From the IMG/VR virus record IMGVR_UViG_2693429524_000007: a DNA stretch of 8,460 bases; one strand, given 5' to 3'. Origin of the DNA: a virus (Duplodnaviria; Heunggongvirae; Uroviricota; Caudoviricetes). Position numbers: made by a program. Of this stretch, positions 6,001 to 8,460 are shown one piece after another (positions within the stretch are counted from its first letter, which is position 1; each line of letters opens with the position of its first letter).

Positions 6001-8460
6001 TGGGTAAAAAATGCCCGAATGGGTTCGGGCAATAGCATGAGATACTGATATTGTTGTGTTGTTATCGTGTGGATTTTAACCAGGGTTTATCAGGCTGCGC
6101 AACTGCGTGGCCTTCTTCATTTCTTGGGCTGTAGTCCCCGTGTGTCATTCAGGCTTCCGGACTACAGCCCACTCCATATCTGATTTAATACACTATCCCG
6201 GCCGGGAGGAATAATGACATTTAAACATTATGATGTTGTCAGGGCGGCGTCGCCGTCAGACCTTGCGGAAAAGCTGACACACAAACTGAAAGAGGGCTGG
6301 CAGCCGTTTGGTAGTCCGGTGGCCATAACCCCTTATACCCTGATGCAGGCGATTACAGCAGAAGGTGATGTGGTGGTCAGTGGTGCAACTGAGCCGGATT
6401 GGTACTACGTCATCGTACTGGCCGGGCAGTCCAATGCCATGGCTTACGGTGAAGGGCTTCCGCTGCCGGATTCATACGATGCTCCGGATCCGCGCATTAA
6501 ACAGCTGGCGCGCCGCAGTACAGTGACGCCGGGTGGGGCTGCCTGCAGATATAACGATATTATTCCGGCCGACCACTGCCTGCATGATGTGCAGGATATG
6601 AGTACGCTGAATCATCCGAAGGCAGACCTGAGCAAAGGGCAGTACGGCTGTGTCGGCCAGGGGTTACATATTGCCAAAAAACTGCTCCCGTATATCCCGA
6701 ATAACGCGGGGATCCTGCTGGTACCATGCTGTCGTGGTGGTTCGGCATTTACCCAGGGCGCGGAGGGGACATTCAGTGCGGACACGGGGGCCAGCCAGGA
6801 TTCGGCGCGCTGGGGGGTGGGTAAACCGTTATATCAGGACCTGATTGCGCGCACCAAAGCTGCATTACAGAAGAACCCGAAAAATGTGTTGCTGGCGGTG
6901 TGCTGGATGCAGGGAGAGTTTGACATGAGCGCCGCCACCCACGCACAGCAACCTGCGCTGTTTACAGCCATGCTGACACAGTTTCGTGCTGACCTCTCCG
7001 TGTTTAACGCGCAGTGCCATGGTGGCAGTGCTGCAGATGTGCCGTGGATTTGTGGTGACACGACGTATTACTGGAAAAATACATACGCTACCCAGTACGA
7101 CACCGTGTACGGCGGGTATAAAAACAGGGAGAGTGAGGGCGTTTATTTTGTGCCCTTCATGACAGACGGTAACGGCGTCAATACCGCCACTAACGCGCCG
7201 GCAGAAGATCCGGATATTCCGGCATCAGGATATTACGGTGCGGCATCGAGAACGAATGGAAACCAGGTATCATCAAACCGCCCGACACATTTCAGTTCAT
7301 GGGCGCGCAGGAGCATTATTCCGGATCGTCTGGCAACCGCTATTCTGAACGCAGCCGGGCGCACCTCAGCCTTCATCAGTGGTAAGGCACCGGAAATCAA
7401 ACCCTCGCCCGGCGGCAACACGCCATCGGGTCCGTCTGCAGATACGTCCGTTCGCACAATCTCCCTGCTGCCGGCAGCCGGAGAGGCTGCTGCGCAGGGC
7501 TGGAGCATTAAGGATGGCGGAATTCAGTTGTCAGATGGTGTATTTAAGATCACCAAGCAGAGCAATAAAACCTGGTCCCTGACGCATCCGGTGGATGACG
7601 CAATTACCCTGCTGACACAGGGCGGCAGACTGACCTGTAAGTTCCGCCTGTCAGGCGCACTGACCAACAATCAGTTCGGGCTGGGGATTTATCTGTATAC
7701 GGATGCTCCCGTTCCTGATGGTGTGGCGATGACGGGTACCGGTAATCCGTTCCTGATGTCGTACTTCACTCAGACCACTGACGGCAGAGTGAATCTGATG
7801 CATCACAGGAAAGCCGGAAACACGAAGCTGGGGGAGTTCGGCGATTACGGTAACGACTGGCAGACGCTGGAGCTGGTGTTCACCGCCGGCAGTGCCACGG
7901 TTACTCCGAAACTGAATGGAGTGGCTGGCCCGGCATTCCAGGTTATAAAAGACAGTCTGACACTGGGACTGAATGCGCTGACGCTGACGGATGTTACAAA
8001 AATGCAGCGTATGGCGTTGAGATAGAAAGTCTGATGCTGGAGATAAATGCACCGGCAGCATAATAAAAAAAGCCAGCGACTGACCTGAAAAAGAAGACGC
8101 TGGCTAAAAGGCCTTATATGTTTGTAGAGACTTATTTTTCACAGACAGCAATGATGCCTGTCAATATATTATCAATATGCGGATTGTTTCAGTTACAGAT
8201 GCCTTATTAAGGAAAAAAACAGCCAGCACTGACTTTCGGTGGAGAGGTGCTGGCTCAAAAGGATAGATGTACTTCACATGTTGCTTCTATATGGCAGTAC
8301 ATTTTCTGACAGACAGTGACGGATGTTGTCAAGATATTGTGTCATTTATAACCTGAATCAGGGGAGGCCGGAATGTTATCTGGCATTTTTAGCAGAGCCT
8401 GAATGCCATAATCACGGCTCCCGGCGTTGGCCGTCAGTGGGTGACACTGGCGGCTTTTTT

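What the first reader, a model, noticed from the sequence alone, without database searches (positions are those of the whole stretch)
8062..8360. Tandem ~148-bp structured repeat units with compensatory stem changes between nanS-p and the expected lysis genes
Two consecutive units share the same architecture: an A7 run, a long-loop stem, AAAAGG, then a ~100-bp body with shared blocks. The stems differ in sequence (AGCCAGCG/CGCTGGCT versus AGCCAGCAC/GTGCTGGCT) yet both pair perfectly, which is the pattern expected when RNA structure rather than sequence is under selection. Read on the minus strand each stem is followed by a T-run, so these could be terminators of two tandem minus-strand small RNAs. 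A conserved TTGACA lies upstream in the minus sense in both units (complement of 8154-8159 and 8326-8331). Read on the plus strand a shorter hairpin in the body (GACAG...CTGTC in unit 1, GACAG...TTGTC in unit 2) is kept only through a G-U pair, which mildly favours a plus-sense RNA. EHEC prophages are known to encode regulatory sRNAs in their late regions (AsxR and AgvB), but I cannot confirm identity with any named sRNA from memory.
Basis: partly seen in the sequence, partly recalled or inferred. Interest (0 to 1): 0.6.

Follow-up and report, generated by a model that had tools for sequence, protein, structure and literature searches.

The report
Known prophage sRNA PasA plus paralog
The two repeat units are two small regulatory RNA genes on the minus strand of a lambdoid prophage: the published Hfq-binding sRNA PasA and, next to it, a diverged copy already seen as Hfq-bound peak EcOnc52, so the finding is real but essentially known.

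Summary
Two units about 150 bp long lie between the nanS-p esterase and the holin. Each has an A7 run, a perfect stem and AAAAGG on the plus strand. Read on the minus strand, each is a TTGACA promoter, a short RNA body, a U-rich stretch, a terminator hairpin and U7.

Unit 2 (8297->8213, minus) is 100% identical to PasA of EPEC E2348/69. PasA is an 85-nt Hfq-dependent sRNA validated by Northern blot and RIL-seq (Pearl Mizrahi 2021); its published probe matches 8222-8246 exactly. Unit 1 (about 8129->8065, minus) corresponds to the Hfq-CRAC peak EcOnc52 of EHEC Sakai (Tree 2014). It also forms the 3' part of the published 236-nt PasA read-through form.

A covariance model built only from PasA and PasC finds unit 1 on the minus strand (34 bits, E about 1e-5). 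The terminator stem shows two cleanly compensated pairs across homologs.

AgvB is elsewhere in the window (6006-6067).

The one modestly new point is that the PasA locus is a diverged tandem pair. In the IMG/VR loci sampled, PasA never abuts the esterase without unit 1. PasC is the single-unit form of the same locus. Whether unit 1 has its own promoter is inferred, not shown.

The parts
8213..8297 (-). Unit 2 = PasA sRNA, major 85-nt form (5' end at 8297, U7 tail at 8219-8213)
   Evidence: Window 7998-8460 is 100% identical to E2348/69 NC_011601 743200-743662. Published PasA coordinates 743499->743415 (Table S6 of PMC8550237) map to 8297->8213. The Northern probe GCCAGCACTGACTTTCGGTGGAGAG equals 8222-8246. 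The covariance model R1 scores it at 107 bits.
8221..8255 (-). PasA intrinsic terminator hairpin: 9-bp stem (arms 8221-8229 / 8247-8255) with a 17-nt loop. The published PasA seed GCCAGCACCU lies in its 5' arm.
   Evidence: Inverted repeat I10, 100% complementary. Predicted fold. Seed from Fig. S5 of PMC8550237.
8303..8332 (-). Inferred PasA promoter: -35 TTGACA at 8332-8327, a 17-nt spacer ending in TGT, and a weak A-rich -10 region (TCAGAA at 8309-8304, or CAGAAA at 8308-8303)
   Evidence: Sequence. The published 5' end at 8297 lies 30 nt after the -35 box. The promoter block is nearly invariant in 111 homologs. The consensus promoter scan does not call it.
8065..8129 (-). Unit 1 = diverged PasA paralog, homolog of Hfq-CRAC peak EcOnc52. 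The predicted RNA is about 65 nt. The 5' end is inferred; the U7 tail is at 8071-8065.
   Evidence: EcOnc52 of Sakai Sp4 (TCTCTACAAACATATAAGGCCTTTTAGCCAGCG...) aligns to this unit. [quoted passage not shown] The model built from PasA and PasC alone hits 8063-8144 on the minus strand at 34.1 bits, E about 9e-6.
8071..8105 (-). Unit 1 intrinsic terminator hairpin: 8-bp stem 8071-8078 / 8098-8105, plus two inner pairs
   Evidence: Inverted repeat I7. Terminator scan hit on the minus strand. Fold with z = -3.75. Annotated as a minus-strand terminator in phage 434.
8136..8164 (-). Inferred unit 1 promoter: -35 TTGACA at 8164-8159, a 17-nt spacer ending in TGT, and an A-rich -10 region (TGAAAA at 8141-8136)
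   Evidence: Same architecture as the PasA promoter. TTGACA is invariant in 84 homologs. Three independent rearrangement junctions lie just upstream of it and leave it intact.
8062..8297 (-). Published minor 236-nt PasA form: read-through of the PasA terminator, ending at the unit 1 terminator
   Evidence: Table S6 of PMC8550237 gives the minor 3' end as 743264, which maps to 8062.
8031..8041 (+). CUGAUGCUGGA, the published predicted PasA pairing motif in the 3' end of the esterase gene
   Evidence: Table S7 of PMC8550237 lists E2348C_0688 with this site. Located in the window.
6214..8025 (+). Context: nanS-p-type sialate O-acetylesterase (DUF1737-SASA-DUF6645), convergent with both sRNA genes
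   Evidence: Pfam. Annotation of phage 434 and E2348/69.
8429..8460 (+). Context: strong plus-strand intrinsic terminator just upstream of the holin gene, which lies beyond the window end
   Evidence: Terminator scan with 11 pairs. Annotated as a terminator in phage 434. Fold.

Best explanation
The region holds two tandem small-RNA genes on the minus strand. They are convergent with the prophage late genes nanS-p and holin.

Unit 2 is PasA. It runs from a TTGACA promoter, starts at 8297 and ends at a rather weak terminator (9-bp stem, 17-nt loop, U7) at 8213, giving an 85-nt Hfq-dependent RNA. Part of the transcription reads through and stops at the unit 1 terminator (8062), which gives the published 236-nt minor form.

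Unit 1 is a diverged duplicate of the same gene type. Most likely it is also transcribed from its own promoter, from about 8129 to 8065 (about 65 nt).

Both RNAs have the standard Hfq-binding module: a U-rich stretch (CCUUUU), a terminator hairpin and a U7 tail. Both act in trans by short base pairing with mRNAs. For PasA the proposed seed is GCCAGCACCU in the 5' arm of the terminator.

Shown by published experiments: the existence, strand, size and Hfq dependence of PasA; its many RIL-seq partners; and Hfq binding to the unit 1 3' end.

Inferred here: paralogy of the two units, the promoters, an independent start for unit 1, and PasC as the single-unit form of the locus.
For: - Identity with PasA: 100% over 7998-8460 against E2348/69, and an exact probe match.
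- PasA is destabilised without Hfq. It has 41 RIL-seq partners and is the second RNA in 94-100% of its chimeric fragments.
- Unit 1 corresponds to EcOnc52 and unit 2 to EcOnc51. Both are Hfq-CRAC peaks with a predicted Rho-independent terminator that passed in three replicates.
- The unit 1 3' end (8065-8092) forms RIL-seq chimeras, for example with escD, and is always the second RNA.
- Paralogy: the unit-to-unit alignment scores z = 7.8. A model built without any unit 1 sequence finds unit 1 at 34 bits on the minus strand only.
- Terminator helix: 92.9% of cells are paired, against 21-54% when the partners are slid. Pair 8 is GC in 16 sequences and AU in 12; pair 7 is CG, with UA in one variant.
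- Promoter geometry: the published PasA 5' end lies 30 nt after its TTGACA. The equivalent point in unit 1 (8129) is 1 nt from the 5' edge of the EcOnc52 peak (8130).
- The promoter blocks are more conserved than the 5' parts of the RNAs.
- Fragment counts under activating versus non-activating conditions are 4983/116 for PasA and 119/54 for unit 1. That does not fit unit 1 RNA arising only as a fixed fraction of read-through.
- In Sakai Sp4 and two other loci, unit 1 survives with its promoter after unit 2 was removed by an insertion.
Against: - No primary 5' end has been mapped for unit 1. The -10 regions are poor matches to consensus and the promoter scan does not call them.
- The Sp4 and Sp12 copies of unit 1 are identical, so the EcOnc52 reads may be multi-mapped from a tandem locus.
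- The authors of the RIL-seq study treated unit 1 as part of a longer PasA form.
- Zhu et al. 2026 read the long form as a precursor cleaved to give the PasA 5' end. That conflicts with my reading of a primary start plus read-through.
- Unit 1 has decayed in some strains, with a lost hairpin and a 5-nt deletion near the -10 region in a dog isolate.
- Covariation rests on few independent events. Whole terminators move between units as blocks by recombination.
Confidence: 0.85

Rival explanations
1. Only unit 2 (PasA) is a gene. Unit 1 is a decaying duplicate kept mainly as a second, back-up terminator. It stops PasA read-through before it runs antisense into the esterase gene. All Hfq-bound unit 1 RNA is then the 3' end of the 236-nt read-through transcript or a fragment of it.
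For: - The 236-nt form shares the PasA 5' end and stops at the unit 1 terminator.
- The PasA terminator is weak (9-bp stem, 17-nt loop). The single-unit PasC locus has a stronger 11-bp stem directly next to the esterase stop codon.
- Unit 1 has only 5 RIL-seq partners against 41 for PasA.
- Unit 1 has decayed in some strains and on plasmids.
- The -10 region is non-canonical.
Against: - The unit 1 promoter block (TTGACA, spacer, TGT, A-rich hexamer) is nearly invariant in 84 copies. It is retained at three independent insertion junctions.
- The 5' edge of the EcOnc52 peak lies at the position expected for a start from that promoter.
- The unit 1 to PasA fragment ratio changes about 20-fold between growth conditions.
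Confidence: 0.3
2. The units are structured elements of a plus-sense RNA, either the 3' UTR of nanS-p or the leader of the lysis genes.
For: - The late transcript must cross this region on the plus strand.
- RIL-seq lists a plus-strand fragment at 8292-8310 as a partner of PasB.
- The hairpins fold equally well on the plus strand.
Against: - On the plus strand the stems are preceded by A7 and followed by AAAAGG, so they are not terminators.
- The GACAG/CTGTC hairpin sits in the promoter spacer.
- The family model scores the plus strand far lower, at 16.5 and 10.3 bits.
- The abundant, Hfq-dependent RNAs detected by experiment are on the minus strand.
Confidence: 0.05
3. Each unit is a type I toxin-antitoxin-like pair. 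On this reading AAAAGG is a Shine-Dalgarno sequence for a small plus-strand peptide (8118-8210, 30 aa; 8267-8356, 29 aa), and the minus-strand RNA is its antisense antitoxin.
For: AAGG lies 4-6 nt before an ATG in both units, and both ORFs are about 30 codons long.
Against: - The unit 2 ORF has no ATG in the PasA-2 variants (38 copies) and stops after 4 codons in PasC (30 copies).
- The peptides have no clear transmembrane segment and no Pfam or NCBIfam match.
- CCUUUU before a terminator is the usual Hfq-binding element.
Confidence: 0.02
4. The units belong to the AgvB/AsxR anti-sRNA group and act chiefly as sponges for core-genome sRNAs.
For: - They share the setting: short Hfq-binding RNAs antisense to the late operon of lambdoid prophages, with a conserved 3' part and a variable 5' part.
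- RIL-seq records a PasB chimera with the plus-strand region next to pasA.
Against: - There is no Rfam AgvB or AsxR match in 7950-8460, while AgvB is found at 6006-6067.
- The RNAs differ in sequence and are longer, at 65-85 nt against 51-60 nt.
- 36 of the 41 PasA partners are coding regions or 5' UTRs, and none is an sRNA.
Confidence: 0.05

Closest known systems
PasA (pathogenicity-associated sRNA A) of EPEC E2348/69, Pearl Mizrahi et al. 2021 (PMC8550237); PasA/PasA-2/PasC family of Zhu, Shabalina and Storz 2026 (bioRxiv 10.64898/2026.05.13.724894)
   Same: Unit 2 is PasA itself: identical sequence, the same position between the sialate esterase and the holin, the same strand, and the same terminator and seed.
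   Different: Nothing differs for unit 2. Unit 1 is not named as a family member in either paper. The 2021 paper folds it into a 236-nt minor PasA form. The 2026 paper states that pasA copies are not products of tandem duplication.
EcOnc51 and EcOnc52, orphan Hfq-CRAC binding sites of EHEC O157:H7 Sakai (Tree et al. 2014, PMC4104026, Table S2)
   Same: EcOnc52 (prophage Sp4) aligns to unit 1. EcOnc51 (Sp12) aligns to the 3' part of unit 2. Both have a predicted Rho-independent terminator.
   Different: The two peaks were reported from different prophages, were not tested by Northern blot, and were not recognised as two neighbours of one tandem locus. The Sakai copies differ from the window by small indels in the loop and U-run, and in the PasA 5' region (PasA-2 type).
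PasC of E2348/69 prophage PP5
   Same: Same promoter and a PasA-like body, with the same AGCCAGCG/CGCTGGCT stem as unit 1. Its terminator abuts the esterase stop codon, as unit 1 does.
   Different: It is a single-unit locus. Relative to the window it lacks the unit 1 body, the unit 1 promoter and the PasA terminator. It has a shorter loop and a longer (11-bp) stem.
Tandem duplicated Hfq sRNAs such as OmrA/OmrB (E. coli) and PrrF1/PrrF2 (Pseudomonas)
   Same: Two adjacent paralogous sRNA genes in the same orientation, each with its own terminator. Read-through gives a longer species, as PrrH does for PrrF1-PrrF2.
   Different: The two units here are much more diverged (about 57% of aligned columns). 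They lie in a prophage, and independent transcription of the downstream unit is not proven.
AgvB/AsxR prophage anti-sRNAs (Rfam RF02702, RF02703)
   Same: Prophage-encoded, Hfq-binding and convergent with late genes, with a conserved 3' part and a variable 5' part.
   Different: No sequence or covariance-model match. They occupy a different site, between PR'/STnc100 and the esterase, where AgvB sits in this very window.

Membership tests
PasA sRNA (unit 2) | Sequence identity with the published PasA gene and its Northern probe | tested here: met
   100% identity of 7998-8460 with NC_011601 743200-743662. The probe equals 8222-8246.
PasA sRNA (unit 2) | Location between the sialate esterase and the holin, antisense to them | tested here: met
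   The esterase is identified by Pfam. The holin lies downstream in phage 434 and E2348/69. The RNA is on the minus strand.
PasA sRNA (unit 2) | [quoted passage not shown] | tested here: met
   9-bp stem plus U7.
PasA sRNA (unit 2) | Hfq-dependent stability and Hfq-mediated target pairing | not testable with these tools
   Published Northern blots in a delta-hfq strain and RIL-seq data. Nothing computable here.
PasA/PasC family (unit 1 as a member) | Detectable homology to PasA/PasC in sequence and structure | tested here: met
   Model R1, built from 17 PasA and PasC sequences without unit 1, hits 8063-8144 on the minus strand at 34.1 bits, E about 9e-6. The unit-to-unit alignment scores z = 7.8.
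PasA/PasC family (unit 1 as a member) | Own promoter and a discrete transcript | tested here: inconclusive
   The TTGACA promoter block is conserved, and the EcOnc52 peak edge lies at the expected start. However, the -10 region is weak, no transcription start has been mapped, and read-through from PasA exists.
PasA/PasC family (unit 1 as a member) | Hfq binding | not testable with these tools
   Published data: the EcOnc52 CRAC peak and RIL-seq chimeras at 8065-8092.
AgvB / AsxR anti-sRNAs (Rfam RF02702, RF02703) | Match to the Rfam covariance model | tested here: not met
   No match in 7950-8460 even at E <= 10. AgvB matches 6006-6067 instead.
Type I toxin-antitoxin | Conserved small ORF opposite the antisense RNA | tested here: not met
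   The unit 2 ORF is lost in PasA-2 and truncated to 4 codons in PasC. There are no family matches.
Structured RNA under selection for pairing | Compensatory changes in the stem across homologs | tested here: met
   Pairs 7 and 8 are cleanly compensated and pairs 9-10 partly. 92.9% of cells are paired, against 21-54% in the slid controls. Six pairs are invariant, and the independent events are few.

The most novel reading that the evidence does not exclude
Unit 1 is an independently transcribed third paralog of the PasA/PasC family. It is always linked in tandem with PasA, so the locus is an OmrA/OmrB-like sRNA pair. That would run against the published statement that pasA copies do not arise by tandem duplication. 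PasC would be the recombinant single-unit allele. Both RNAs are also fully antisense to the transcript that runs from nanS-p to the lysis genes, so they could act in cis on esterase or holin expression as well as in trans.
Probability: 0.5. Interest if true: 0.35.

Novelty: already known. Interest (0 to 1): 0.2.

Why it matters
PasA is among the most connected accessory-genome sRNAs in EPEC, and its RIL-seq partners include type III secretion and bfp genes. Recognising that a second, diverged copy travels with it matters in three ways. It changes how PasA copy number and evolution should be counted. It explains the 236-nt form. It also points to an uncharacterised sRNA with a different 5' region and a slightly different seed. 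The full tandem is present in about 12% of complete E. coli genomes (671 of 5426), often in several prophages per genome. This is a refinement of existing knowledge, not a new kind of element.

Tried and rejected
- Rfam, at gathering thresholds and at E <= 10, gave no family for 7950-8460. PasA is not in Rfam.
- Tandem Repeats Finder did not see the repeat, which is too diverged.
- The consensus promoter scan did not call the two minus-strand promoters, because their -10 regions are weak.
- A genome-contig scan with a pattern I had relaxed by one base per arm returned 120 unrelated terminators from many phyla. None has homology to the unit bodies.
- RNA duplex predictions of PasA and unit 1 against the esterase 3' end and the holin start gave long, loop-ridden structures. 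Only unit 1 against the esterase 3' end stood out from shuffles (0.7% of shuffles scored as well); the other three did not. I judged all four uninformative.
- The small-ORF (type I toxin) idea was rejected on ORF loss in the variants.
- EcOnc04 of Sakai Sp11 was checked as a possible match. It lies upstream of the esterase, at the STnc100/PasD position, so it is unrelated.
- Plasmid hits turned out to be a decayed fragment next to IS66.
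Full report
**Context.** The window is the late-regulatory region of a lambdoid prophage. 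Pfam identifies Dam methylase, RusA, KilA-N, DUF968 and antiterminator Q (3586-4338). Rfam places STnc100 at 5815-6005 (+) and AgvB at 6006-6067 (-). Next comes a nanS-p-type esterase (DUF1737-SASA-DUF6645, 6214-8025). The last 470 bases are 99.8% identical to phage 434 and 99.4% to Stx1 phages. In phage 434 the annotators marked two minus-strand terminators and one plus-strand terminator in the same place, followed by the class II holin, but no RNA gene.

**Observation.**
- A7 runs at 8065-8071 and 8213-8219.
- Perfect stems AGCCAGCG/CGCTGGCT (8071-8078 / 8098-8105) and AGCCAGCAC/GTGCTGGCT (8221-8229 / 8247-8255).
- AAAAGG after each stem.
- Shared blocks in the bodies.

The two 150-bp units align with 98 identities in 171 columns, 7.8 sd above shuffles. 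That is below what Tandem Repeats Finder detects.

**Identity of unit 2.** Rfam has nothing here, but the literature does. Table S6 of Pearl Mizrahi et al. 2021 (PMC8550237) describes PasA of EPEC E2348/69. It lies on the minus strand at 743499->743415 (major form, 85 nt) or ->743264 (minor form, 236 nt), between the esterase E2348C_0688 and E2348C_0689. The Northern probe is GCCAGCACTGACTTTCGGTGGAGAG. That probe is window 8222-8246. Window 7998-8460 is 100% identical to E2348/69 743200-743662. So PasA is 8297->8213 on the minus strand, and the minor form ends at 8062, just past the unit 1 terminator. PasA is less stable without Hfq. It has 41 RIL-seq partners and is almost always the second RNA in chimeras.

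**Identity of unit 1.** The same table notes EHEC homologues EcOnc51 and EcOnc52. Tree et al. 2014, Table S2, lists these as Hfq-CRAC peaks with a predicted Rho-independent terminator. They passed in three replicates and were not tested by Northern blot. I fetched both Sakai loci.
- EcOnc52 (Sp4) is the homolog of unit 1 (TCTCTACAAACATATAAGGCCTTTTAGCCAGCG...).
- EcOnc51 (Sp12) is the 3' part of a PasA variant, that is, unit 2.
- In Sp4 an IS629 copy replaces unit 2 and ends about 20 nt upstream of the unit 1 -35 box.

In E2348/69 RIL-seq, the entry 'pasA.E2348C_0688.IGR' (minus strand) has chimeras at 743267-743294, which is window 8065-8092. It is always the second RNA and has five partners, including escD.

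**Paralogy and structure.**
- An IMG/VR pattern scan gave 120 loci. From these I extracted 28 distinct family RNAs.
- The 10-pair terminator helix is 92.9% paired, against 21-54% when the partners are slid. Six outer pairs never vary. Pair 7 is C-G, with U-A in one variant. Pair 8 is G-C in 16 sequences and A-U in 12. Pairs 9 and 10 are partly kept. RNAalifold agrees on 8 pairs, two of them compensated.
- The covariation is therefore real but rests on few events. Mosaic variants (PasA 5' part with a PasC terminator; unit 1 body with a PasC terminator) show that whole terminators move as blocks.
- A covariance model built from PasA and PasC only finds unit 2 at 107 bits and unit 1 at 34.1 bits (E about 9e-6), both on the minus strand. 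The plus-strand hairpins score 16.5 and 10.3 bits.
- Folding gives, for each unit on the minus strand, a 5' region, CCUUUU, a terminator hairpin and U7. This is the usual Hfq-binding module (established knowledge).

**Promoters (inferred).** The two units share the following layout.

| Element | PasA (unit 2) | Unit 1 |
|---|---|---|
| -35 box | TTGACA, 8332-8327 | TTGACA, 8164-8159 |
| Spacer | 17 nt, ending in TGT | 17 nt, ending in TGT |
| A-rich hexamer | TCAGAA | TGAAAA |
| Next 6 nt | AATGTA | ATAAGT |
| Start of RNA | CTGCC..., 5' end 8297 (published) | CTCTAC..., 5' end 8129 (by analogy) |

The published PasA 5' end (8297) lies 30 nt after its -35 box. That is the normal distance for a primary start. 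The same geometry puts a unit 1 start at 8129, and the EcOnc52 peak begins at 8130. The promoter blocks are nearly invariant in 84 and 111 copies, while the first 15-40 nt of the RNAs vary most. The consensus scan does not call these promoters because the -10 regions are weak.

**Locus forms.** In the IMG/VR loci about 70 have the order esterase - unit 1 terminator - unit 1 promoter - PasA terminator - PasA promoter - plus-strand terminator. About 30 have esterase - PasC terminator - PasA-type promoter - plus-strand terminator. No locus has PasA next to the esterase without unit 1. The PasC locus of E2348/69 PP5 aligns with the window as a clean deletion of the unit 1 body, the unit 1 promoter and the PasA terminator. 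In complete E. coli genomes, 671 of 5426 hold at least 80% of 8040-8365, with a median of five matching places per genome that has any match. Zhu et al. 2026 state that pasA copies are not products of tandem duplication. Their BLAST-based census would not have seen a copy that matches in only about 57% of aligned columns.

**Is unit 1 an independent gene?**

For:
- The promoter is conserved and is retained at three independent insertion junctions.
- The EcOnc52 peak edge lies at the expected start.
- RIL-seq fragment counts under activating versus non-activating conditions are 4983/116 for PasA and 119/54 for unit 1. That does not fit a constant read-through fraction.

Against:
- No transcription start has been mapped.
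- The Sp4 and Sp12 copies are identical, so CRAC reads may be multi-mapped.
- Unit 1 has few partners.
- Unit 1 has decayed in some strains.
- The original authors treat it as the tail of a longer PasA form.

I put independent expression at about 0.6.

**Rejected readings.**
- A plus-sense RNA is not supported. There is no U-run on that strand and the model scores there are far lower.
- Small plus-strand ORFs start after AAGG in both units. However, the unit 2 ORF has no ATG in PasA-2 and only 4 codons in PasC, and no protein family matches.
- AgvB/AsxR membership fails the Rfam test.

**Verdict.** The finding is a correct reading of a real feature, and that feature is already in the literature. 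Unit 2 is PasA. Unit 1 is EcOnc52 and also the 3' part of the 236-nt PasA form. The small addition here is that the locus is a diverged tandem pair of paralogous sRNA genes, with PasC as its single-unit form.

Noticed in passing
window 5815-6067: STnc100 (RF02076, 146 bits, + strand, 5815-6005) directly abuts AgvB (RF02702, 96.5 bits, identical to the consensus, - strand, 6006-6067). This is a second convergent sRNA pair in the window, downstream of Q and upstream of the esterase, as described by Tree et al. 2014.
   Followed up: partly
window 7996-8063: The esterase ORF in this window stops at 8025. An A-run near 7996-8002 is one base shorter than in E2348/69 and phage 434. In those two the CDS runs to TAA at 8061-8063, ends ...NAAYGVEIESLMLEINAPAA, and abuts the unit 1 terminator. 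This is either a real frameshift or a homopolymer sequencing error.
   Followed up: partly
window 8340-8460 (+): The plus strand folds well here (z = -2.9) and ends in a strong intrinsic terminator (8429-8460, 11 pairs plus a T-run) just upstream of the holin. It could shield the lysis genes from transcription that is not antiterminated, or it could be the end of a plus-strand small RNA. RIL-seq lists a plus-strand fragment at 8292-8310 as a partner of PasB.
   Followed up: partly
window 8143-8161 and 8311-8329: The inverted repeat GACAG-N9-CTGTC (GACAA in unit 2, read on the minus strand) lies inside the spacer of both sRNA promoters. It could be an operator for an unknown regulator. It also creates a weak plus-strand promoter-like site at 8142-8170.
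   Followed up: no
IMG/VR loci L006-L125 (family variants): Some variants are mosaics: a PasA 5' region with a PasC terminator, and a unit 1 body with a PasC terminator. The PasA 5' 40 nt occur in at least three very different versions behind an invariant promoter. This suggests module shuffling and diversifying 5' regions, as in AgvB and AsxR.
   Followed up: partly
L246 (NZ_CP027356 plasmid, 2440-2700) and L247 (NZ_CP151038, 1500-1800): About 100 E. coli plasmid places carry a decayed fragment (esterase 3' end plus unit 1) next to IS66 and a uilS lactonase gene. In a dog isolate the unit 1 hairpin is lost and there is a 5-nt deletion near the -10 region, while its PasA-2 unit is intact.
   Followed up: partly
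window 8031-8041 versus homologous loci: The predicted PasA pairing site in the esterase 3' end is CUGAUGCUGGA here. It is CUGGUGCUGGA in Sakai Sp4 and Sp12 and in E2348/69 PP5. The latter version gives a perfect 8-bp match to CCAGCACC of PasA. The site therefore varies between loci.
   Followed up: no
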